Assembly (NCBI GenBank): GCA_023229175.1
Contig: JALNZV010000007.1
Coordinates: 18,550-82,549 of the forward strand
Reading direction: 5' to 3'
Source: Tissierellaceae bacterium
GTDB taxonomy: Bacteria > Bacillota > Clostridia > Tissierellales > Tissierellaceae
Length of the DNA stretch: 64,000 bases
The notes beneath the pieces were generated by a model that had not been told where the DNA came from, did no database searches, and saw nothing but the letters and a program-made list of their open reading frames with translations. Below, in pieces: positions 10,556 through 62,110 of the stretch. Position 1 is the first letter of the stretch, and each line of letters starts with the position of its first letter. Position numbers and translations under genes: made by a program.

Positions 10556-10673
10556 TATAAAAAATTTTAAATAATGGCAATTTTGTATATTGATTACAAT
10601 ACCTAGGTATGCTATAATAATAACAAAGCTACTAGTTAGTTTAATATCAATCAAAACAAGGGGGAAGAAATCA

Positions 10674-11621
10674 ATGAAGATGAAGAGGTTTTTAAGTATT
10701 TTGTTAGCATTGTTACTATCTCTAAGTATTTTGAGTGGCTGTGCAAAGCAAGAGGCACCGCCAGTAGTCGACGACGATGCATCACAGACCCAAGTTAAAG
10801 ATACGACACAAGTCGACGCTCAAGAACCTTTAGACCCTGCAGCAGTCATACTTGAGCACACAACTACTTATCTAAACAACATACCAGAAAACAGCAACAT
10901 GATACCTGCTAAAGAAGCAATGGAACGAATTGAAGAAAATCCAGACGCATTGTTTATTGTTGACATGAGAGCTAAGGAAGATTATGACAAAGGCCACTTA
11001 CCAGGTGCAGTAAACATTCCTTTTGCTCAAATGGGTAAAAACTTAGACAGACTTCCTACAAACAAACAAATAATCATGTATTGCTACTCAGGACAGAATT
11101 CAGGTCTAGGGGTATCTACAGTAAAACTCTTGGGATTTAATGTAATTTCTTTCCAAGGCGGCATGAACTTCGGTTGGAATACATTAGAATTGGGAGAAGA
11201 TACCCTAGAAACAACAGAAAATGCACTACCAGATGCAAAAACGCCAGATTTATCGGAAGAAGAACAAATAGTATGGGATGCAGTAGCAAAATTCTTTGAC
11301 GAAGGAAAAACCTACATGGAAGCAGCAGCAGATGTAAGCGAAATATTAGAAGAAAATCCAGATGCTGTCTTTGTAGTAGACCTTAGATCAGGAGAAGACT
11401 TTGCCAAGGGTCACATAGAAGGAGCGACAAACATTGCATTTAAAGAGGTAGGAAAAAATCTAGATAAAATACCTAAAAACAGACCAGTTTATCTAGCTTG
11501 CTACTCTGGCCAAACAGCAGCGCAAATAATGACAATGCTTAGGCTAAATGGATACAATGCTTCAATAATCACAAGAGGCATGGCAGGCTGGGCTGGGGCA
11601 GAATTACCAGTCGTAGAATAA
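10674..11621 (+). CDS. Extracytoplasmic lipoprotein with two rhodanese (sulfurtransferase) domains
   Basis: Signal peptide with lipobox LSGC, then an acidic linker. There are two rhodanese repeats, each keeping the catalytic Cys loop (MYCYSGQNSG and LACYSGQTAAQ). Confidence 0.85.
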   Translation: MKMKRFLSILLALLLSLSILSGCAKQEAPPVVDDDASQTQVKDTTQVDAQEPLDPAAVILEHTTTYLNNIPENSNMIPAKEAMERIEENPDALFIVDMRAKEDYDKGHLPGAVNIPFAQMGKNLDRLPTNKQIIMYCYSGQNSGLGVSTVKLLGFNVISFQGGMNFGWNTLELGEDTLETTENALPDAKTPDLSEEEQIVWDAVAKFFDEGKTYMEAAADVSEILEENPDAVFVVDLRSGEDFAKGHIEGATNIAFKEVGKNLDKIPKNRPVYLACYSGQTAAQIMTMLRLNGYNASIITRGMAGWAGAELPVVE

Positions 11622-11685
11622 AAAGATTGGGGGCTAAGGCCCCCAAAATAGAATGCTTCTGAGAAAAATATTCGGAGGTGAGATT

Positions 11686-13014
11686 ATGAAAGAAAAATTC
11701 TACCAAAAAGCAATATTTGGTGCCGCAATCCTAATAGCATTATCAGTAGTTATTTTGTTTACCTATCAATTAACAAACAAATCAGAACATATTGCTAAGA
11801 AACTAACAACTCCCGTGGCTATCGAGCCAATAGATAGTAGCAACTGTATAGCTTGTCATACAAGCGAATCCATTATAGGTTCAGTAATAATAGAGTCAGA
11901 TGAAGGCCATGGAGGAGAAGGAGGTTGAGGCGTAGCAGGACCACAGCTGGAAGCTGTAGACATGTACTTAGTATCAAAAGATTTTTTAGAGACTTCACAC
12001 GGACAATTAGGTTGTATCAATTGCCACTCAGGTGAAAACTTACCAACTCAAGAGCAAGCACACGCCACTATGAATCCATACCCATCAGAAGATAACGACG
12101 GAGTCTGTGCTCAATGTCACGTAGGCGTAACTGAGACATATGCCAGTTCCATACACTACAATTTACATGGAATGGAAAATGGATTGATGTCATTTGCAAG
12201 CACGGATTCAATGCCAGATTCACCGGCCCATGCAGAAGTATTTGACAAAAACTGTATGAGCTGTCATGCAACCTGCGGCGAATGCCATGTCAGTAGACCA
12301 AGTAATTATACTGGAGGATTAATAAATCAACACGAATTCTTTAAGACACCTCCAATGGAAGAAACTTGCTACGGGTGCCACGGTGCCAGAACTGCAGGGG
12401 AATTCATGGGAGAAGTAGGATTTTCTGGGGATGTCCATTTCGAATTAGGAATGGATTGTATGGATTGTCACAATATAGATAATTTTCACGGCACAGGAGA
12501 AGTTGGGGAGAGAATGTGGGATGAAGCATTGCCATCATGTCTTGATTGTCATGAAGAGGAAATGTCGGGCAATTCCCAAATCGAAGCCCACAACGCCCAT
12601 GGGGATATGTTATCATGCCAAGTATGTCATGCCCAAGCAAATAACAATTGCTTCGAATGTCATGTCACATATAACGAAGACAAATCTGCATTAAAGAGTG
12701 CCTCAGACAGTAAACTGATGTTTAGAATAGGACTAAATCCAAACCCAACAGAGGAAAGACCATATAAATACGTAACTTTAAGACATATACCTACTGCTGC
12801 CAACTCCTTTGACACAGTAGAACCAAATATGCTCCCAAACTTTGACAACATAAACAATTGGAAATATTCTCCAACACATAATATCCAAAGGAGCACATTC
12901 CAAAATGAGTCTTGTGAATCATGTCATGACAACGACAAACTCTTCTTAAGAGAAGAGGACATAATAGAGTCCGACAGCAAAGAAAACTTAAGACTAATAG
13001 TTCCAAGACCATAG
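11686..13014 (+). CDS. Membrane-anchored multihaem cytochrome c (11 CXXCH motifs), read as one frame through an in-frame TGA at 11926-11928 (candidate selenocysteine codon)
   Basis: ORFs 11653-11928 and 11962-13014 share a frame, and only the TGA separates them. The N-terminal part has a TM anchor and CIACH. The C-terminal part has 10 CXXCH motifs, including doubled ones (CMSCHATCGECH), and no signal peptide. A GGAGGTGA SD precedes the ATG at 11686. Confidence 0.55.
11943..11957 (+). promoter_or_regulatory. Candidate SECIS-like hairpin downstream of the cytochrome UGA
   Basis: ACAGC-UGGAA-GCUGU, a 5-bp stem with a G-containing pentaloop, starting 14 nt after the UGA. Confidence 0.35.
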
Positions 13015-13022
13015 AGAATATG

Positions 13023-13056
13023 AAAACTAAAAGGGGAATTTTCCCCTTTTAGTTTT
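13023..13056 (+). terminator. Rho-independent terminator after the cytochrome gene
   Basis: Hairpin aaaactaaaagggga-att-ttccccttttagtttt. Confidence 0.8.
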
Positions 13057-13082
13057 ACAAAAGATAAATAGGAGAGATTAAT

Positions 13083-14342
13083 ATGATCAAAAAAATAGGA
13101 AGATTTTTAATAAGCTTTCGCTTTGCAATCGTATTATTTATAGCTATAGCTACATATTCTATAATTGGAACAGTTATACCTCAGGGAGTTGCACCTGAAT
13201 TTTACATGGAGAAGTACAAAAGCTTTGGCAATATTATGATGATTTTGCAATTTAACAAAGTCTATAGTTCCTTTATTTATCGGGGATTGTTATTGTTTTT
13301 TCTAGTAAATCTAACAGGCTGCACCATAGATTTATTGCCATCGCAAATGAGGAGAATAAAGGACGACTATTTTCCATCACCAAGAAAAGATTCGGAAAAC
13401 TTGTGGGACCACAAGAAAGACATAGAGTTATTTAAATTACAACTATTAAAAAAGAGATTTAAAATTTACGATACAGAAAAGGGATTTAAGGCGGCAAAAA
13501 ATCGGATAGGCGTACTTGGGCCAACAGTTACCCACCTAGGTATTATTGTAATTATTTTGGGAAGCTTTTTAGGAAACTTATTCGCCTATGAAGGATTTGT
13601 AAATTTAATGCCTGGTGAGACTAAGACATTTATGGAGCAAGGATTTTCCATAGAACTGGAAGACTTTTATTTAGGTTTCAGGGAAGACGGTTCTACAGAA
13701 CAGTACTATAGCGATTTAAAGGTGTTTGAAAATGGGAAACATAAAGATTCCAAAAAAATTTGGGTAAACAATCCCCTAGACTATAAAGGCCTTAGCATAT
13801 ATCAATCCAGCTTTGGGTGGGTAAGCAATTTAAGCATCAAGGATAGTCAAGGAGATATTTTAAATCAAAGCATATTAAAAAACAATGAACAATACTTTTA
13901 CCAACCAAAACATTTAACAGTATATTTATATGGCTATTATCCAGATTTTAGCATAGATCAAATGGGACAACCCATGACCCTTAGCCAAGAAGTCAAACAC
14001 CCCCATTATGCAGTAGTGTTGTATGAGTTTGGTAACTACATTGATTCCTATATAACAGAACCTGGACAGGCCATAAAATATGAAGATATCGAAATAACTT
14101 TTGAGGACTCTTTTCTCTATACGGGCCTTATATATAGGAAGGACTTTGGATATTACTTTGTATTAATAGGGGTACTATTTTTATTTATAGGGCTATTAAT
14201 GTCATTTTACTATTATCCAAAATTCTTAGTAGTAGAAGAAAACTCCATATTGCCAATAACAAGACAAAATATATGGGGATTTACATTGCAGATGAAAAAG
14301 ATATTACAAGCAAATGATGAATCGGAAAAGGAGGAAGTATAA
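13083..14342 (+). CDS. resB: Cytochrome c biogenesis protein ResB/Ccs1 (System II)
   Basis: N-terminus FLISFRFAIVLFIAIATYSIIGTVIPQG, a large extracytoplasmic loop and a C-terminal TM helix. Confidence 0.85.
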   Translation: MIKKIGRFLISFRFAIVLFIAIATYSIIGTVIPQGVAPEFYMEKYKSFGNIMMILQFNKVYSSFIYRGLLLFFLVNLTGCTIDLLPSQMRRIKDDYFPSPRKDSENLWDHKKDIELFKLQLLKKRFKIYDTEKGFKAAKNRIGVLGPTVTHLGIIVIILGSFLGNLFAYEGFVNLMPGETKTFMEQGFSIELEDFYLGFREDGSTEQYYSDLKVFENGKHKDSKKIWVNNPLDYKGLSIYQSSFGWVSNLSIKDSQGDILNQSILKNNEQYFYQPKHLTVYLYGYYPDFSIDQMGQPMTLSQEVKHPHYAVVLYEFGNYIDSYITEPGQAIKYEDIEITFEDSFLYTGLIYRKDFGYYFVLIGVLFLFIGLLMSFYYYPKFLVVEENSILPITRQNIWGFTLQMKKILQANDESEKEEV

Positions 14343-15163
14343 TGGATATTATATACTTTGAAGAGTTGTTTTTCACTTTATCATTTATTATATATATAAT
14401 AGCTTCTTTAGGATTTTTTATATTTTTAGTATCATCGAAAGATAGTGTTGGCAAATTTGCAGTTACAGTATCATTGGCGGGATTTATTGTACACACAGCA
14501 GCCATGGTCCTTAGAATAATAGAATCTGGAAGACTCCCATTTAGCAATCAATTTGAATTTGCCAATAGCTTTACCTGGGGAATAGTGCTTTGTTATTTAG
14601 CGATACATTTTATTTATAAATTCACAGCAGTAGGTACTTTTGTAATGCCCCTGGCATTTTTAATGATGGGATATGCATCTATGCTTCCAAAGACAATAAA
14701 ACCTTTAATGCCGGCACTTCAGAGCAGGTGGCTTTCCATACACGTAGGTACTGCCATTATATCCTACGGTTCATTTGCAGTAGCGGCAGGCCTATCAGTC
14801 ATGTACTTAATCTATGAAAGAAATAAGGGAAAAGGAACCAAAAAATCCCATTTACCAGATGCGGAAATCTGCGATTACTTGAGCTATAGAGTGACTGCCT
14901 TTGGATACCTGATGCTTACATTAGTCATAGTCACAGGTGCAATATGGGCCAAAAGAGCCTGGTCAAGGTATTGGGGATGGGACCCTAAAGAAACATGGTC
15001 ATTGATTACTTGGATTATATATTCTACCTATTTGCACTTGAGATTTAATAGGGGTTGGAAAGGCAAAACAGCTGCATGGTTTTCAGTAATAGGTTTTATA
15101 TGTGTAATATTTACGTTTGTAGGGGTGAATGTATTACTGGCAGGTCTCCATAGCTACAGATAA
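14342..15163 (+). CDS. ccsA: Cytochrome c biogenesis protein CcsA/ResC (System II haem handling)
   Basis: Trp-rich WWD motif WSRYWGWDPKETWSLITW and YLHLR. The ATG overlaps the resB stop. Confidence 0.9.
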   Translation: MDIIYFEELFFTLSFIIYIIASLGFFIFLVSSKDSVGKFAVTVSLAGFIVHTAAMVLRIIESGRLPFSNQFEFANSFTWGIVLCYLAIHFIYKFTAVGTFVMPLAFLMMGYASMLPKTIKPLMPALQSRWLSIHVGTAIISYGSFAVAAGLSVMYLIYERNKGKGTKKSHLPDAEICDYLSYRVTAFGYLMLTLVIVTGAIWAKRAWSRYWGWDPKETWSLITWIIYSTYLHLRFNRGWKGKTAAWFSVIGFICVIFTFVGVNVLLAGLHSYR

Positions 15164-15268: not shown

Positions 15269-15594
15269 ACTACCAACAGAGATAATTTCAGATAAAAGAA
15301 CATGTTTATGAGTAATCGTTCATATTCATGTTCTTTGACTGTGTATAATAGGTTAAAATTTTGTAATTATGCAAATTTGTATAATTTTTAATACAAAATT
15401 AATACAATATTTACAAATATAAATTGGAATAATATTTAAACTGCAAATAATTGTATAAAAAATGACATTCTTTTACAGGGTCTAATTTATGTACATTATA
15501 ATTGTTTAATGTTATAATATATTAGAATTATTTAAGCATATAATATGTTTAATTATTTTGCGATTTATTAAAACACAATAGAGAGGTGGAAAGA

Positions 15595-43217: not shown

Positions 43218-44252
43218 ATGGAAATTAAATTGACACAAATGACCAAAGCCTCGGGGTGAGCCGCTAAAATAGGACCCGATGTCCTGGCGCAAGTTTTGCG
43301 TCATATACCAAAATCAGAAGATGAAAAACTGCTTGTAGGACTTGATACATCCGACGATGCAGCAGTTTATAAGATAAATGAGGAAATTGCCATGATTCAA
43401 ACTGTGGATTTTTTCACTCCCATAGTTGATGACCCTTATACATTTGGACAAATAGCAGCTACCAACGCCCTGTCAGATATATATGCCATGGGGGGCGAAC
43501 CAAAATTAGCCATGAATATAGTATGTTTTCCCACATGTTTAAGCCCCGATATCCTAACGGAGATTTTAAAGGGAGGCTATGACAAGGTAAAGGAAGCAGG
43601 AGCCATAGTGGTAGGAGGCCACACAATAGAAGATGATGAACCAAAGTTTGGATTATCGGTCACAGGATTTGCACATCCAGATAAGATACTGGCAAATAAA
43701 ACGGCTAAGGTAGGGGATTTGCTAATACTTACAAAACCTTTGGGCATAGGAATAATTAACACCGCTATCAAGGGAGAATTAGTGGATAAGGAATCTTATG
43801 ACGAAGCAGTTATGGCAATGACAACATTAAATAAATACGCTAAAGAAGTAATCGACAAAGTAGGAGGCGTAAACAGCCTGACAGATGTCACTGGATTTGG
43901 CCTAATAGGCCATGCCTACGAGATGGCAGATGCCAGTTCAGTATCCATTAGGATAGACCATAAAAAGATACCAGTAATAACAAAAGCCATAGAATATGCA
44001 AACATGGGTCTAGTACCTGCTGGTGCCTACGCAAACAGAGGGTATGTAGATGAATTTATCAAGATAAATAAGGACGTGCCAGAATATATGGAAGATATAC
44101 TATGTGACCCCCAAACATCAGGAGGACTTTTAATATCCATACCAAAAGAAAGGGCAGATATTTTGCTAGAGGAGTTAAAATCTACCCCTACAAGATATGG
44201 AATAATTGGAGAAGTAGTGGAAAAACAGGAATATCACATATACGTTGATTAA
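43218..44252 (+). CDS. selD: Selenide, water dikinase (selenophosphate synthetase), selenocysteine-containing (UGA at codon 14, 43257-43259)
   Basis: The ATG at 43218 after a GAAGGAGGTGA SD gives MEIKLTQMTKASG-U-AAKIGPDVLAQVL, in frame with ORF 43296-44252. U occupies the catalytic Cys position of the LTQ..GxG(C/U)xxK motif. Confidence 0.9.
43271..43285 (+). promoter_or_regulatory. Candidate SECIS hairpin of selD
   Basis: AGGAC-CCGAU-GUCCU, starting 11 nt after the UGA. Confidence 0.5.
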
Positions 44253-44271
44253 GAAGGGAAGGGATCTATAA

Positions 44272-45690
44272 TTGGAAAACCTATTTGCCTTATTGCCAAA
44301 AGTAGACGATTTACTAGAATCAGAGAACATAAAAGATTTACTAGATTATATACCGAGAAAGCTGGTTTTGGACAGCATACGAATAGAAATAGAGGCAATA
44401 CGAGAAAAAATAAAAGGACAAAGACCAAAAGACGAAATAAATAAAGAAATTGAAGATATTCACTTTAAGATAAGGAAAAGGGCAGAGAAAAGAAATAAAA
44501 ACAAACTTAAAAGAGTTGTCAACTGCACAGGTGTAGTCATACACACGAATTTGGGCAGATCTCTAATAAACAAGGAAATAATGGAAAATATCAGTGAAAT
44601 AGCAACTAATTATTCAAATCTCGAATACGACTTGGAGACTGGAACTAGGGGTTTGAGATACAGCCATTTAGAGGAAATAATTACAGAAATAACAGGTGGC
44701 GAATCCACCATAGTAGTAAACAACAACGCCGCTGCAGTATTGTTGGTACTTAGTACCATAGCTAAGGGAAAAGAAGTCATAGTCTCCCGTGGTGAGCTAA
44801 TTGAAATAGGAGGGGCATTTAGAATACCAGAGGTAATGGAACAAAGTGGAGCTACTTTAATTTCAGTTGGAACCACAAATAAAACCCATTTAAGGGACTA
44901 TGAAAATGCCATAAACGAAGATACAGGAGCACTATTGAAAGTGCATACCAGTAACTATAGAATATTAGGGTTTACGTCATCAGTAGATTCAGAAAAACTA
45001 TTTGAACTGAGGAAAAAATACGATATACCTTTAATAGAGGACTTGGGGAGTGGAGTACTGGTAGACCTATCTAAATACGGAATAGAATACGAACCCACAG
45101 TACAAGAAAGTATAAAAAAAGGCGTCGATGTAGTGACTTTTAGCGGAGACAAGTTATTAGGCGGACCTCAAGTGGGAATTATCGTAGGTAGACGGAAATA
45201 TATAGAAGAAATGAAAAAGAACCCCTTGACTAGGGCATTCAGAGTTGATAAATTTACTATTTCAGCATTGGAAGCAACTTTAAGATACTACTTTGACGAG
45301 GAAAGAGCTATAAATGAAATTCCAACCCTAAAGATGCTGACCATGAGCATGGAAGAGATTGAGAAGAAAACTAAGGTACTTCAAGAAAGGATACTGGAAA
45401 AAATAGAGGATCCTGGGATGACAATTCATATAGAAAATAGCTACTCTGAAGTTGGAGGAGGTTCTTTGCCTTTGGAAAAGCTGCCTACAAAATGTATAGT
45501 TGTGACCCTAGAGAAAATGAGTACCCAAGCATTTGAAAACAACTTGAGAAGATTTCATATACCTATTATTACGAGACTATATAAAGATAAAATTTATTTT
45601 GATTTAAGGACAATCAGAAATGAAGAATTTGATATAATAGTAGAGGGCCTACTATATGCCTTTGAAAAAACAAAAGGAGTAATGCAATGA
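44272..45690 (+). CDS. selA: L-seryl-tRNA(Sec) selenium transferase
   Basis: Motifs NCTGVVIHTNLGRS and TFSGDKLLGGPQVGII (PLP lysine). TTG start. Confidence 0.93.
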   Translation: MENLFALLPKVDDLLESENIKDLLDYIPRKLVLDSIRIEIEAIREKIKGQRPKDEINKEIEDIHFKIRKRAEKRNKNKLKRVVNCTGVVIHTNLGRSLINKEIMENISEIATNYSNLEYDLETGTRGLRYSHLEEIITEITGGESTIVVNNNAAAVLLVLSTIAKGKEVIVSRGELIEIGGAFRIPEVMEQSGATLISVGTTNKTHLRDYENAINEDTGALLKVHTSNYRILGFTSSVDSEKLFELRKKYDIPLIEDLGSGVLVDLSKYGIEYEPTVQESIKKGVDVVTFSGDKLLGGPQVGIIVGRRKYIEEMKKNPLTRAFRVDKFTISALEATLRYYFDEERAINEIPTLKMLTMSMEEIEKKTKVLQERILEKIEDPGMTIHIENSYSEVGGGSLPLEKLPTKCIVVTLEKMSTQAFENNLRRFHIPIITRLYKDKIYFDLRTIRNEEFDIIVEGLLYAFEKTKGVMQ

Positions 45691-47597
45691 AACACGTCAT
45701 TATCGGAACAGCTGGTCATATTGATCACGGCAAAACAACTTTAATAAGGGCTATCACCGGTAGAAATACAGATAGATTGAAAGAAGAGCAGGAAAGGGGA
45801 ATATCCATAGAGCTAGGTTTCACCTATTTTGACCTACCATCTAATCAAAGGGCTGGTATAATCGACGTACCTGGACATGAAAAATTTATAAAAAACATGC
45901 TTGCAGGAGTCATGGGTATAGATATAGTACTATTAGTAGTGGCAGCCGACGAGGGAATTATGCCTCAAACTTTGGAGCACCTTCACATATTGGACCTACT
46001 TGGTATTAAAAAAGGTTTTGTAGTCCTAACAAAGACAGATTTAGTAGATAAAGAATGGATTGATATGGTAGAGGAAGAAGTAGAAAGCGAAATATTGGGA
46101 ACGTTTTTAGAAAAATCTCCAATAATTAGAGTGTCATCAACCACTAAGGCGGGTATAAACGAAGTTATCGAGATAATAGACCAATACGCCAATGAATTAG
46201 AGGAAAAGGACACCAAAGATATGCCTAGATTGCCTGTAGACAGGGTATTTACAATATCGGGTTTCGGTACCGTAGTCACAGGAACCCTTCTATCGGGGCA
46301 GCTTAGCATTGGAGAAGAACTGCAAGTATTTCCAGGACAAAGAAAGGCAAGAATAAGAACCTTACAAGTTCACGACCAATATGCGAAGACTGCCTATGGA
46401 GGGCAGAGAGTAGCTATAAATCTAGCAGGATTAAAGAAAGACGATATCCAAAGAGGAGATACCCTAGCACCTGTAAATTCCATGTCAGACACCATGATGC
46501 TAGATGTGAAGATAAAACTTTTAAAAGGTGCAGATAGATATATAGACAATAGAACTAGGCTTAGACTATACGTCGGCACCAAAGAAATCCTCTGCCGTAT
46601 TGTGCTGCTCGATAGAGAACAATTGGGGCCAGGAGAAGAGACCTATGCACAACTTAGGCTAGAGGAAGAAACTGTAGCAAAAAGAGGAGACAAATTTATC
46701 ATTAGATTTTATTCTCCCATGTATACAATTGGAGGGGGAGAAATACTAGAGCCAAATCCAAAGAAGAAAAAGCGATTTGACGAAAAGGCCTTAAAAGAAT
46801 TAGAAGTAAAAGAAAAGGGGACATCCATAGATATAACAGAAAAAATCATTGAAGATAACTCAAAGAATTTTCCAACCACAAAAGAAATTGCAGTACTGAC
46901 GTCGATGTTGGAGGAGAGCGTAAGGGATGAGGTACAAAGTCTAATGGAAATGAAAAAAGTAATCTCCTTTCAACTGACGAAGGACCTGCACGTGATTCAC
47001 AAAAACTATTATGAGGAAGTGAAAAATAGGATAATAGAGGAATTGCAGAATTTTCACAAAAAATATCCTTTGAGATGGGGAATGTCCAAGGAAGAAATAA
47101 AAAACAAATATTTAGGAAATGCAAAGCCGAGAGTAGGAGATAGTTTCCTTGACAACTTAGTAAAAGAAGGGTACCTATCACAAAGGTTAGAAAACCTTTC
47201 CATTATAGACTTTGAAATAAACCTAAGCCCCCTTCAGCAAAACATAAGGGAAGAAATATTGAAAAAGTTCAATAGTAGTCCCTACCAACCGCCAAAGAAA
47301 GAAGACTTAGACACCATAGGGAATAGCCCCAAAGGAGAAGCAGATGAAGTCTTCATATCCATGGTGAACGATGGCGACATTGTAAAACTAAATGAGGAAT
47401 TACATCTATCAAAAGAAGCATATGAAAATGCAGTAAATATATTAAAGGAATATTTAAAGGAAAAAGAAAGTATAACAACTGGTGAGTTTAGAGATCTTTT
47501 AAATACCAATAGAAAAGTAGCCATTGCCCTTTTGGAGTATTTTGACCAAATTAAACTGACCAAAAGAGAAAAGGATATTAGGGTAATAAATAAATAA
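45687..47597 (+). CDS. selB: Selenocysteine-specific translation elongation factor
   Basis: G motifs [21 protein letters not shown] and TKTD. C-terminal winged-helix repeats. Overlaps the selA stop. Confidence 0.95.
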
Positions 47598-61951: not shown

Positions 61952-62057
61952 CCCTTGACACAAAAGTAAAACCTGCTATAATATACTAGTGTCAAGTATC
62001 ACAAGAATTTTATGGGAGTAGATGGGTGCTGGTGTGCCCACTGGTCTTCAAAACCAG
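61952..62057 (+). repeat. Direct repeat copy B (the functional selC promoter and tRNA 5' half)
   Basis: See 59911-60016. Confidence 0.9.
61955..61982 (+). promoter_or_regulatory. selC promoter
   Basis: TTGACA, 16 nt spacer, TATAAT. It is bracketed by the inverted repeat CTTGACAC/GTGTCAAG. Confidence 0.65.
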
Positions 62058-62110
62058 CTTGAGGCGTTAGGAGCGTCTTAGGTGAGTTCGATTCTCACAT
62101 ACTCCCGCCA
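62014..62110 (+). tRNA. selC: tRNA-Sec (anticodon UCA), CCA encoded
   Basis: Sequence GGGAGTAGATGGGTGCTGGTGTGCCCACTGGTCTTCAAAACCAGCTTGAGGCGTTAGGAGCGTCTTAGGTGAGTTCGATTCTCACATACTCCCGCCA. It has a long acceptor and D stems, a long variable arm and anticodon loop CUUCAAA. Confidence 0.92.

What the first reader, a model, noticed from the sequence alone, without database searches (positions are those of the whole stretch)
10674..15163. Surface rhodanese lipoprotein, multihaem cytochrome and dedicated System II maturation genes: a possible extracytoplasmic chalcogen/metal reductase module in a Gram-positive
Four co-directional genes make up the cluster.
- A lipoprotein with two rhodanese domains. 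Both keep the catalytic Cys loop (CYSGQNS and CYSGQTA), whereas tandem rhodaneses often keep only one.
- The 11-haem cytochrome. Its first haem follows the TM helix closely, in a NapC/NirT-like arrangement that could accept electrons from the quinone pool.
- resB and ccsA.
No thiol-reduction partner (ResA/CcdA type) is visible here.
From established knowledge, periplasmic rhodanese-like Sud delivers polysulfide sulfur to a respiratory reductase in Wolinella. A rhodanese-family lipoprotein (ExtH) has been reported in a Geobacter multihaem cytochrome conduit cluster linked to selenite/tellurite reduction. Multihaem cytochromes carry extracellular electron transfer in Gram-positive Thermincola.
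The pairing here, with a putative Sec in the cytochrome and the rnf operon next door, suggests an uncharacterised sulfur/selenium or metal reductase at the cell surface.
Basis: inference. Interest (0 to 1): 0.7.

Follow-up and report, generated by a model that had tools for sequence, protein, structure and literature searches.

The report
Selenocysteine 11-haem cytochrome–rhodanese module
This Tissierellaceae cluster encodes a cell-surface 11-haem cytochrome containing selenocysteine, a sulfur-carrying rhodanese lipoprotein and dedicated haem-attachment genes; the cytochrome–rhodanese pair recurs in hundreds of anaerobes from at least five phyla, is annotated as a truncated protein, and is probably an unrecognised enzyme that reduces thiosulfate or polysulfide sulfur.

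Summary
Four co-directional genes encode a lipoprotein with two Cys-active rhodanese domains, an 11-CxxCH cytochrome interrupted by one in-frame TGA, ResB and CcsA.

The TGA is a selenocysteine codon. It sits at the same aligned position in 78 of 78 related loci from Bacillota, Spirochaetota, Chloroflexota, Desulfobacterota and Nitrospirota. A hairpin follows it in 88% of loci, against 19% of control windows, with 16 different stem sequences. Divergent homologues carry Cys there. The window itself holds selD, selA, selB and tRNA-Sec.

An exported rhodanese is adjacent or fused in about 85–90% of loci. Sphaerochaetaceae place selA and selB between the two genes. Lineages carry either System II or System I haem-attachment genes next to the cytochrome.

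The closest characterised system is Geobacter MccSep/ExtKL, a 5-haem Sec polysulfide reductase in the cluster that also holds rhodanese ExtH. This family fails every MccSep membership test.

The Dethiobacter member, described as a 10-haem hypothetical protein, is upregulated on thiosulfate.

Most likely function: a rhodanese-fed, Sec-dependent reductase of sulfane sulfur from thiosulfate or polysulfide. The NapC/NirT-like and rnf links are not supported, and the electron donor is unknown. I rate it a new variant of a known kind, apparently an uncatalogued selenoprotein family.

The parts
10590..10618 (+). Promoter-like site (TTGATT-17-TATAAT with an extended TG) upstream of the rhodanese gene
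   Evidence: This is a consensus match only.
10674..11621 (+). Lipoprotein with two rhodanese domains, both with an active-site Cys (CYSGQNS, CYSGQTA). Proposed carrier of sulfane sulfur.
   Evidence: Partners in other loci all have a signal peptide or lipobox, and CY[ST]GQT is conserved in Bacillota and Spirochaetota.
11686..13014 (+). Membrane-anchored cytochrome c of 442 residues with 11 haem motifs and Sec at residue 81, read through the TGA
   Evidence: Family conservation.
11926..11928 (+). In-frame TGA, the selenocysteine codon (U81)
   Evidence: TGA at the aligned position in 78/78 loci. Cys in divergent homologues.
11943..11957 (+). SECIS-like hairpin (ACAGCU-GGA-AGCUGU) starting 17 nt after the U of UGA
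   Evidence: Hairpins of at least 6 bp occur in 88% of loci against 19% of control windows, with 16 distinct stems.
13033..13055 (+). Terminator-like hairpin plus T-run between the cytochrome gene and resB. Possible attenuator.
13083..14342 (+). ResB (CcsB-type), System II cytochrome c synthase subunit
   Evidence: PF05140. Directly downstream of the cytochrome in 30 loci.
14342..15163 (+). CcsA (NCBIfam name CcsB), System II haem-handling subunit
   Evidence: TIGR03144 above its cut-off. Found in 35 loci.
43218..47597 (+). selD (itself with an in-frame TGA), selA and selB: the Sec-insertion machinery needed to decode the cytochrome
62014..62110 (+). tRNA-Sec (anticodon UCA)

Best explanation
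The cluster encodes an extracytoplasmic reductase of sulfane sulfur made of two proteins tethered to the outer face of the cytoplasmic membrane.

Shown:
- The cytochrome is one 442-residue polypeptide. UGA-81 is decoded as selenocysteine with the help of a downstream hairpin and the selABD/tRNA-Sec genes of the same genome.
- It carries 11 c-type haem motifs and is accompanied by its own System II haem-attachment genes, ResB and CcsA.
- Its conserved partner across phyla is an exported rhodanese.

Inferred:
- The rhodanese Cys takes a sulfane sulfur from thiosulfate (releasing sulfite) or from polysulfide, forming a persulfide.
- The selenolate of Sec81 attacks that S-S bond.
- The resulting Se-S adduct is reduced to sulfide by electrons delivered through the haem chain.
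- The family has exactly 10 invariant non-motif His for 11 haems and no spare Cys. One haem therefore lacks a conserved His distal ligand and probably forms the catalytic centre together with Sec. Sec may ligate it directly, or it may sit beside an open or weakly ligated haem.

In fermentative Tissierellia this would give an electron sink or respiratory acceptor. The electron donor to the haem chain is not identified.
For: Sec is genuine.
- TGA is conserved in 78/78 loci from five phyla.
- The upstream frame keeps haem 1 and a signal peptide, anchor or lipobox.
- 55 of 75 loci have no Met codon within 24 codons after the UGA, so the 10-haem part could not be made or exported on its own.
- A hairpin follows the UGA in 88% of loci against 19% of control windows, with compensatory stem changes.
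- Divergent homologues carry Cys at the site.
- selD, selA, selB and tRNA-Sec are in the window.

The link to rhodanese is strong.
- A rhodanese lies within 5 kb on the same strand in at least 40 of 48 loci with enough flank. tBLASTn finds partners in three further loci.
- Fusion proteins exist: P0070, P0076, L038 and L061.
- There are 2 to 6 rhodanese domains per partner, and all partners are exported.
- Sphaerochaetaceae have the order rhodanese-selA-selB-cytochrome-resB-ccsA.

Functional precedent.
- Geobacter MccSep/ExtKL is a Sec-containing multihaem cytochrome. It reduces polysulfide, and less well selenite, by Sec attack next to a specially ligated haem. It lies in the cluster that also holds rhodanese ExtH.

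Physiology.
- The Dethiobacter alkaliphilus member WP_008516925.1 matches DealDRAFT_1917 and sits next to rhodanese DealDRAFT_1918.
- It is upregulated on thiosulfate relative to ferrihydrite.
- Both strains reduce thiosulfate yet lack Dsr and molybdopterin reductases.

Residue count.
- 11 CxxCH, 10 invariant non-motif His, invariant Sec and no conserved extra Cys.
Against: - There is no biochemical test of any member.
- MccSep itself showed no thiosulfate activity and is not homologous beyond the generic haem core.
- Dethiobacter strain Z-1002 has the cluster but cannot reduce elemental sulfur, so the module is not sufficient for S0 respiration.
- The proteomic change in Dethiobacter is modest. 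It is reported in the text seen; the column meanings in the supplementary table are ambiguous.
- No electron-input protein is conserved next to the module.
- Thiosulfate reduction to sulfide plus sulfite has a very low potential (my own knowledge).
- The Sec loop was modelled with pLDDT below 50, so its position relative to any haem is not shown.
- Met224 (90% conserved) or Met256 (85%) could be the missing haem ligand instead of Sec.
- In Desulfobulbaceae and Nitrospirota the second partner rhodanese has Ser in place of the catalytic Cys.
- A terminator-like hairpin separates the cytochrome gene from resB.
Confidence: 0.5

Rival explanations
1. Selenite/tellurite reductase, or a selenium-acquisition device. 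The Sec-cytochrome reduces chalcogen oxyanions outside the cell, and the rhodanese carries the resulting selenium as a perselenide for detoxification or for supply to SelD.
For: - MccSep also reduces selenite.
- The ext cluster was first linked to selenite/tellurite reduction.
- The only NCBIfam matches of the cytochrome, all weak, are to ExtN, ExtO and ExtM of that operon.
- selA and selB are embedded in the Sphaerochaetaceae locus.
Against: - Polysulfide is MccSep's preferred substrate.
- The NCBIfam scores are 50 bits against cut-offs of 200 to 800.
- An 11-haem enzyme conserved in hundreds of species from sulfidic, soda-lake and oil-field settings fits an abundant substrate better than a trace element (inference).
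- The Dethiobacter member responds to thiosulfate.
Confidence: 0.15
2. The module runs in the oxidative direction. It would be a TsdA/SoxAX-like oxidase that takes sulfane sulfur or thiosulfate from the rhodanese and passes electrons into the haem chain.
For: - Members occur in Desulfobulbaceae and Desulfurivibrionaceae, relatives of sulfide-oxidising and sulfur-disproportionating bacteria.
- Haems with a His/Cys-type ligand pair catalyse thiosulfate oxidation in TsdA and SoxAX, as discussed.
Against: - Most carriers are fermenters or sulfidogens (Tissierellia, Gudongella, Sphaerochaetaceae, Dethiobacter) with no evident high-potential acceptor.
- The Dethiobacter member is upregulated during thiosulfate reduction.
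Confidence: 0.1
3. An OcwA-like terminal reductase for extracellular electron transfer to Fe(III), other metals or shuttles at the Gram-positive surface, with Sec and the rhodanese playing accessory roles.
For: - The best match to a solved structure is OcwA of Thermincola (6i5b, E = 1.6e-7).
- There are 11 haems and a membrane anchor.
Against: - The match consists of short haem-motif fragments.
- The family is periplasmic with a cleavable signal peptide in diderm bacteria.
- An invariant Sec and an obligate rhodanese partner are not explained by metal reduction.
- The Dethiobacter member is lower on ferrihydrite than on thiosulfate.
Confidence: 0.07
4. A NapC/NirT-type quinol dehydrogenase coupled to the neighbouring Rnf complex.
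For: - A TM helix precedes haem 1, and rnfCDGEAB lies 420 bp downstream.
- rnf is also near the module in L034.
Against: - There is no PF03264 match.
- The N-terminus is a lipobox or a cleavable signal peptide in other lineages.
- rnf adjacency is seen in only 4 of 74 loci, and in L034 it lies across a divergent LysR gene.
Confidence: 0.03
5. The TGA is a true stop or a pseudogene lesion. That would give a separate 80-residue monohaem protein and a 10-haem protein.
For: Public annotations call only the 350-residue downstream ORF.
Against: - The TGA is conserved in 78/78 loci.
- A hairpin follows it, and Cys homologues exist.
- The downstream part has no signal peptide or start codon in most loci.
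- The Sec machinery is present.
Confidence: 0.01

Closest known systems
MccSep (ExtKL, GSU2937-2936) with rhodanese ExtH, Geobacter sulfurreducens (PMC13510729, PMC5877670)
   Same: - A multihaem c-type cytochrome with a single catalytic Sec encoded by an in-frame UGA plus a downstream hairpin.
- Annotated as two ORFs.
- Extracytoplasmic.
- Sits in a cluster that also holds a rhodanese-family protein.
- Cys-type relatives exist.
- Acts on chalcogens (polysulfide, selenite).
   Different: - 5 haems against 11.
- MccSep's Sec lies in a C-terminal Ig-like domain (DGUP), whereas here it lies in an N-terminal loop between haems 1 and 2 (GG-U-G).
- MccSep needs a haem-ligating Cys239, and this family has no non-motif Cys.
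- No NCBIfam ExtKL match. Profile similarity is E = 0.0046 over about 80 residues of haem core.
- The partner rhodanese is not ExtH-like by NCBIfam.
- There is no porin or bc-like ExtOP module.
DealDRAFT_1917 / DealDRAFT_1918 of Dethiobacter alkaliphilus (PMC10376724)
   Same: - The same family: P0052 is 56-57% identical to the window protein.
- A rhodanese gene is adjacent.
- Proposed by the authors as a non-canonical determinant of reduction of sulfur compounds, and upregulated on thiosulfate.
   Different: - Described there as a 10-haem, SirA-like hypothetical protein with no signal peptide.
- Its Sec codon, first haem and N-terminus were not recognised.
- The gene order is cytochrome then rhodanese, and no adjacent resB/ccsA was seen.
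Sud-Psr polysulfide respiration of Wolinella succinogenes (my own knowledge)
   Same: A periplasmic rhodanese-type sulfur carrier hands polysulfide sulfur to a membrane-associated reductase.
   Different: - The reductase there is a molybdopterin enzyme (PsrABC) fed by menaquinol, not a Sec haem protein.
- Sud was not among the solved-structure matches of this rhodanese at E <= 1e-3.
OcwA (6i5b), MccA, NrfA and the octahaem reductase superfamily
   Same: Weak profile similarity in haem-binding segments (E = 1.6e-7, 4e-5 and about 1e-3). These are multihaem enzymes with one special catalytic haem.
   Different: - No CxxCK or CX15CH motif.
- Different haem count.
- Sec is present.
- Matches are fragmentary, and Foldseek found nothing.
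His/Cys-ligated haems of TsdA, SoxAX and DsrJ
   Same: A chalcogen-containing side chain at a c-type haem is used for sulfur-sulfur chemistry. The count of 10 His for 11 haems is compatible with an analogous His/Sec haem.
   Different: The ligation is not shown here, there is no sequence relationship, and no Sec-ligated haem c has been described as far as I know.

Membership tests
Bacterial selenoprotein (genuine Sec decoding) | In-frame UGA conserved at the same position in orthologues | tested here: met
   TGA in 78/78 loci with upstream sequence, from five phyla
Bacterial selenoprotein (genuine Sec decoding) | SECIS-type hairpin shortly downstream of the UGA | tested here: met
   A stem of at least 6 bp starts at +12 to +17 in 88% of 75 loci against 19% of 2391 control windows. 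There are 16 distinct stems and G/U-rich loops. No Rfam match.
Bacterial selenoprotein (genuine Sec decoding) | Homologues with Cys at the Sec position | tested here: met
   P0112, P0116, P0118, P0133, P0159, P0179, P0193 and others
Bacterial selenoprotein (genuine Sec decoding) | selA, selB, selD and tRNA-Sec in the genome | tested here: met
Bacterial selenoprotein (genuine Sec decoding) | Selenium detected in the protein | not testable with these tools
   Needs mass spectrometry or 75Se labelling
MccSep / ExtKL (NF040886) | Five conserved CxxCH motifs | tested here: not met
   11 invariant CxxCH
MccSep / ExtKL (NF040886) | [quoted passage not shown] | tested here: not met
   Sec is residue 81 of 442, between haems 1 and 2, in a GG-U-G(V/A/P) context
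MccSep / ExtKL (NF040886) | Strictly conserved haem-ligating Cys outside CxxCH | tested here: not met
   No conserved non-motif Cys in 67 full-length members
MccSep / ExtKL (NF040886) | Match to the family model or to the solved sequence | tested here: not met
   No NF040886 match at E <= 0.01. 9wt8 and 9wt9 are absent from the single-sequence search. The profile gives E = 0.0046 over 80 residues.
MccSep / ExtKL (NF040886) | Polysulfide reductase activity dependent on Sec | not testable with these tools
   Needs an enzyme assay
NapC/NirT quinol dehydrogenases (PF03264) | Match to the family model | tested here: not met
   No PF03264 match
NapC/NirT quinol dehydrogenases (PF03264) | Conserved N-terminal membrane anchor next to the quinol-site haem | tested here: not met
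   The anchor is replaced by a lipobox or a cleavable signal peptide in other lineages
System II cytochrome c maturation (ResB/CcsB + CcsA) | Both subunits recognised by family models and adjacent | tested here: met
   PF05140 E = 1e-52, PF01578 E = 1e-52, TIGR03144 at 272 bits against a cut-off of 188
System II cytochrome c maturation (ResB/CcsB + CcsA) | Thiol-reducing partner (CcdA/ResA) | tested here: inconclusive
   None inside 10.6-15.2 kb or among the conserved neighbours. The rest of the genome was not seen.
Catalytic rhodanese sulfurtransferase | Rhodanese fold with an active-site Cys loop | tested here: met
   Two PF00581 domains with CYSGQNS and CYSGQTA. All NCBIfam equivalogs are below their cut-offs.
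Catalytic rhodanese sulfurtransferase | Extracytoplasmic location, as for Sud and ExtH | tested here: met
   Lipobox here, and a signal peptide or lipobox in all 66 partner proteins. These are sequence-based predictions only.
NrfA / MccA / octahaem reductases | Signature active-site haem motif (CxxCK, or CX15CH) | tested here: not met
   All 11 motifs are CxxCH. Only fragmentary profile matches.

The most novel reading that the evidence does not exclude
Sec81 is itself the sixth ligand of one c-type haem, giving a His/Sec-ligated haem that would be unprecedented as far as I know. This selenolate-haem centre, fed with persulfide sulfur by exported rhodaneses, would define a new and widespread class of respiratory thiosulfate/sulfur reductase. 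It would be the missing enzyme in organisms such as Dethiobacter that reduce these compounds without Dsr or molybdopterin enzymes. It would also be the reason why otherwise cytochrome-poor fermenters (Tissierellia, Sphaerochaetaceae) carry a self-contained package of cytochrome, maturation genes and, in Sphaerochaetaceae, selAB.
Probability: 0.25. Interest if true: 0.9.

Novelty: new variant of a known kind. Interest (0 to 1): 0.72.

Why it matters
Only one multihaem selenoenzyme, MccSep, has been characterised, in work posted in 2025 and published in 2026. This would be a second, architecturally unrelated family.

- It is larger (11 haems) and has no heme-ligating Cys partner for the Sec.
- Relatives were found in at least 584 species-level genomes.
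- It is systematically annotated as a truncated "hypothetical" or "cytochrome c3 family" protein, or even as a sulfurtransferase.
- It offers a concrete, testable candidate for thiosulfate and sulfur reduction in bacteria that lack the canonical reductases.
- It would add a family to the prokaryotic selenoproteome. A May 2026 review lists no such family.
- It shows rhodanese plus Sec-cytochrome as a recurring solution for handling sulfane sulfur outside the cell.
- Cultured carriers exist for direct tests: Dethiobacter alkaliphilus, Gudongella oleilytica, Anoxynatronum buryatiense and Thermanaerothrix solaris.

Tried and rejected
- AlphaFold2 on the natural Cys-form P0112 with a 72-sequence alignment. 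The overall pLDDT was 80, but the Sec/Cys loop was below 50 because few database proteins cover the N-terminus. Coordinates are not exposed, so haem-ligand geometry could not be measured.
- Foldseek of the model against the PDB gave only noise, with the best E = 4.
- Single-sequence and profile searches of PDB sequences gave only fragmentary haem-motif matches.
- Rfam found no SECIS family in the region.
- RNA folding of the window hairpin alone is not better than shuffles, z = +0.67. The support comes from the comparative data.
- The NapC/NirT idea was rejected.
- rnf as a functional partner is not supported.
- A YeeE-like sulfur transporter as a conserved partner was found only in L034 and L037.
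- Other neighbours are not conserved: a pyridine-nucleotide disulfide oxidoreductase, a polyprenyl synthase, methyltransferases and an ABC permease.
- His, Met or Tyr at or near the Sec column in members lacking Cys/Sec was noted as a hint of haem ligation. The alignment there is too loose to count as evidence.
- Literature searches for a prior description of an 11-haem selenoprotein found none in the open-access library. Subscription journals are not covered.
- I could not retrieve the full MccSep sequence for a profile-profile comparison.

Full report
**1. What is in the window**

Four co-directional genes occupy 10674-15163.

- The first (10674-11621) encodes a 315-residue lipoprotein. Its lipobox is LSILSG-C. 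It has two Pfam rhodanese domains, each with an active-site Cys loop, CYSGQNS and CYSGQTA. All NCBIfam rhodanese equivalogs score below their cut-offs.
- The second gene starts at the ATG at 11686, with GGAGG 7 nt upstream, and ends at 13014.
- The second gene has eleven CxxCH motifs and no other cysteine. One in-frame TGA lies at 11926-11928, in the context GHGGEGG-TGA-GVAGPQ. Counted from the Met at 11686, that is residue 81.
- ResB follows at 13083-14342 (PF05140).
- CcsA follows at 14342-15163 (TIGR03144, above its cut-off).
- rnfCDGEAB starts at 15586.

A promoter-like site precedes the rhodanese gene. A terminator-like hairpin with a T-run (13033-13055) separates the cytochrome gene from resB, so co-transcription of all four genes is not assured.

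The organism is a Tissierellaceae bacterium. The downstream cytochrome ORF is 100% identical to MAG proteins MCK9443883.1 and MFA7533006.1.

**2. The TGA is a selenocysteine codon**

- *Public gene calls stop at the same point.* A protein search returned 728 relatives. Nearly all were about 350 residues long and covered only the part downstream of the TGA.
In all 78 of the 80 retrieved loci that had upstream sequence, the frame continues upstream through a TGA at exactly the aligned position. That frame holds a conserved first haem motif, C(I/V)xCHT, and a signal peptide, lipobox or anchor.
- *The taxa are diverse.* They are Tissierellia, Gudongella, Tindallia, Anoxynatronum, Syntrophomonadaceae and Peptococcaceae, together with Sphaerochaetaceae, Anaerolineae, Desulfobulbaceae/Desulfurivibrionaceae and Nitrospirota.
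- *The downstream part cannot stand alone.* In 55 of 75 loci no Met codon occurs within 24 codons after the UGA. The 10-haem part also has no export signal of its own.
- *A hairpin follows.* A hairpin with a stem of at least 6 bp starts 12-17 nt after the UGA in 88% of loci. Only 19% of 2391 control windows in the same genes have one.
- *The hairpin varies in sequence, not in position.* There are 16 different stem sequences, for example ACAGCU/AGCUGU, GCGCCGGA/UUCGGCGC, GCCCCUC/GAGGGGC and GGCUCC/GGAGCC. The apical loops are G/U-rich.
- *Cys homologues exist.* More divergent homologues have Cys at the site: Bipolaricaulota P0112, P0116 and P0118, plus P0133, P0159, P0179, P0193 and others. A few database proteins show W there, which I take as TGA read with another genetic code.
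- *The machinery is present.* The window carries selD (itself TKASG-TGA-AAKIGP), selA, selB and tRNA-Sec.

The alternative that the gene is split or broken is excluded for practical purposes.

**3. Anatomy of the family**

I rebuilt 67 full-length read-through sequences.

- All eleven CxxCH motifs are invariant. Some Chloroflexota add two more at the C-terminus.
- Sec is invariant, and there is no conserved Cys outside the motifs.
- Exactly ten non-motif His are invariant: H105, 126, 157, 216, 251, 268, 302, 305, 367 and 398.
- One haem therefore lacks a conserved His distal ligand. Met224 (90%) and Met256 (85%) are the only other candidate ligands.
- Arg235, Arg366, Tyr362 and Trp392 are also invariant or nearly so.
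- The N-terminus varies with cell envelope and lineage. It is a hydrophobic anchor in Tissierellia and Gudongella. It is a lipobox in Sphaerochaetaceae and Chloroflexota. It is a cleavable signal peptide in Desulfobulbaceae.

This variation argues against a conserved NapC/NirT-type quinol site, and Pfam gives no PF03264 match.

An exhaustive HMM search of 1.84 billion representative proteins found 199 clusters at E <= 1e-30 and 705 at E <= 1e-10.

**4. Conserved partners**

- *Rhodanese.* An exported rhodanese protein lies on the same strand within 5 kb in at least 40 of 48 loci with enough flank, and within 1.5 kb in 35. tBLASTn finds partners in three further loci (L028, L049, L056).
- *Order and copy number vary.* Tissierellia and Gudongella have one protein with two domains upstream. 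Syntrophomonadaceae and Peptococcaceae have it downstream. Chloroflexota have a four-domain protein downstream. Desulfobulbaceae and Nitrospirota have two tandem two-domain proteins downstream.
- *Fusions exist.* Cytochrome-rhodanese-rhodanese fusions are P0070, P0076 and L038. A rhodanese-repeat-cytochrome fusion is L061.
- *Sphaerochaetaceae.* The order is rhodanese-selA-selB-cytochrome-resB-ccsA (Pfam).
- *Haem-attachment genes travel with the cytochrome.* System II (resB-ccsA) follows it in Tissierellia, Gudongella, Tindallia, Anoxynatronum and Sphaerochaetaceae. System I (ccmB, ccmE and ccmF by Pfam, with ccmA- and ccmC-like ORFs alongside) precedes it in Syntrophomonadaceae-type loci.
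- *Possible lateral transfer.* The cytochrome is about 60% identical between Tissierellia and Sphaerochaetaceae, which are different phyla.
- *rnf.* It is adjacent only in the three closest relatives and, beyond a YeeE-like transporter and a divergent LysR gene, in L034.
- No other neighbour is conserved.

**5. Comparison with known systems**

The closest characterised analogue is Geobacter sulfurreducens MccSep. It is encoded by gsu2937-2936 (extKL), in the extHIJKL... cluster whose first gene encodes the rhodanese-like ExtH.

MccSep has these features:
- It is a periplasmic homotetramer with five haems per subunit.
- One haem is His/Cys-ligated.
- The catalytic Sec sits in a C-terminal Ig-like domain.
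- It reduces polysulfide and, less well, selenite.
- It does not reduce thiosulfate.
- It is needed for S0 respiration.

The present family works on the same theme but is not a member of that family:
- It has 11 haems rather than 5.
- Its Sec lies in an N-terminal loop.
- It has no haem-ligating Cys.
- It gives no match to the NCBIfam ExtKL model.
- It gives no match to 9wt8 or 9wt9 with the single sequence.
- The family profile gives only E = 0.0046 over about 80 residues of haem core. That is weaker than its matches to OcwA (1.6e-7) and MccA (4e-5) and similar to NrfA.

A May 2026 review of prokaryotic selenoproteins lists only three cytochrome families: ExtKL, a GSU2204-family protein and an OTR-family octahaem protein. 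None of them matched here. RefSeq annotates the cultured Gudongella and Dethiobacter members as truncated "multiheme c-type cytochrome". JGI names several of them "thiosulfate/3-mercaptopyruvate sulfurtransferase".

**6. Physiological evidence from a family member**

- Dethiobacter alkaliphilus WP_008516925.1 (P0052) is 56-57% identical to the window protein.
- It matches DealDRAFT_1917. That protein is listed as a 10-haem hypothetical protein next to rhodanese DealDRAFT_1918, which is what truncation at the TGA would give. In the proteome table it is followed by the rhodanese WP_008516926.1.
- It was significantly upregulated in thiosulfate-grown relative to ferrihydrite-grown cells.
- Both strains of the species reduce thiosulfate, carry the cluster, and lack Dsr and molybdopterin reductases. 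Strain Z-1002 has the cluster but cannot reduce S0.

This favours thiosulfate, or sulfane sulfur in general, over solid sulfur as the substrate.

**7. Proposed mechanism**

Shown:
- The cytochrome is a single exported polypeptide with Sec and 11 haem motifs.
- It is genetically coupled to exported, Cys-active rhodaneses and to haem-attachment genes.

Inferred:
- The rhodanese forms a persulfide from thiosulfate or polysulfide.
- Sec81 attacks the S-S bond.
- The Se-S intermediate is reduced through the haem chain, releasing sulfide.
- The haem that lacks a conserved His ligand forms the catalytic centre with Sec, possibly by direct Sec-Fe ligation.

Open points:
- The electron donor is unknown.
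- The position of the Sec loop is unknown. The AlphaFold model had pLDDT below 50 there, and Foldseek was uninformative.
- The real substrate range is unknown.

**8. Verdict**

A chalcogen reductase with Sec and rhodanese: yes. A NapC-like quinol oxidase, an rnf link or a metal reductase: no.
- The finding is best classed as a new variant of a known kind. It is a second, non-homologous family of multihaem selenoenzymes. It is widespread and currently mis-annotated, and cultured carriers are available for decisive experiments.

Noticed in passing
window 43218-44252 (+): selD itself contains an in-frame TGA (MEIKLTQMTKASG-TGA-AAKIGP), so it is a Sec-type SelD. It is followed by selA (44272-45690) and selB (45687-47597). 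The ORF finder lists only the part after the TGA.
   Followed up: partly
window 13033-13055 (+) and 11627-11646: A terminator-like hairpin with a T-run lies between the cytochrome stop and the resB start. It may attenuate or uncouple expression of the maturation genes. The GC hairpin between the rhodanese and cytochrome genes has its T-run only on the minus strand.
   Followed up: no
L030 2344-9429; also L008, L010, L036, L044: In Sphaerochaetaceae, selA and selB sit between the rhodanese gene and the Sec-cytochrome gene. This suggests that the Sec machinery and this selenoprotein are inherited together, and the cytochrome may be a principal selenoprotein there.
   Followed up: partly
L038 1884-6546; L034 166-3475: Syntrophomonadaceae-type Bacillota place System I maturation genes (ccmABCEF) directly upstream of the same cytochrome, whereas Tissierellia and Spirochaetota use System II. 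The cytochrome thus travels with whichever maturation system is at hand.
   Followed up: partly
L034 6440-7702 and 9097-11469; L037 2-763: A YeeE/YedE-like sulfur transporter (PF04143) follows the rhodanese gene in L034, then a divergent LysR gene and rnfC-rnfD. This is a second lineage with rnf within 5 kb of the module. A YeeE-like gene also occurs in L037.
   Followed up: partly
window 11686-13014 compared with L006-L036: The cytochrome is about 60% identical, and CcsA about 59% identical, between Tissierellia and Sphaerochaetaceae, which are different phyla. This suggests lateral transfer of the whole module.
   Followed up: no
P0139, P0141, P0144, P0152, P0184 (alignment): Divergent family members without Cys or Sec at the site carry Met, His or Tyr at or next to the aligned column. 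All three residues can ligate haem iron. The alignment in this loop is loose, so this is only a hint that the position is an axial ligand.
   Followed up: partly
L072 8192-10119; L057 8124-10117: Desulfobulbaceae and Nitrospirota loci have two paralogous two-domain rhodanese proteins downstream. The first keeps Cys only in its second domain. The second has Ser in place of the catalytic Cys, so it is probably not a sulfurtransferase.
   Followed up: no
L061 3932-8000; L055: Some Anaerolineae fuse up to six CYTGQTA rhodanese domains to the N-terminus of the Sec-cytochrome in one reading frame of about 1500 residues. The start codon was not verified.
   Followed up: no
PDB chain 28pb_A: An unnamed 278-residue 'Cytochrome c' in the PDB sequence file matches the haem 2-3 region of the family profile at E = 3.8e-7, as strongly as OcwA does. 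Its identity could not be looked up.
   Followed up: no
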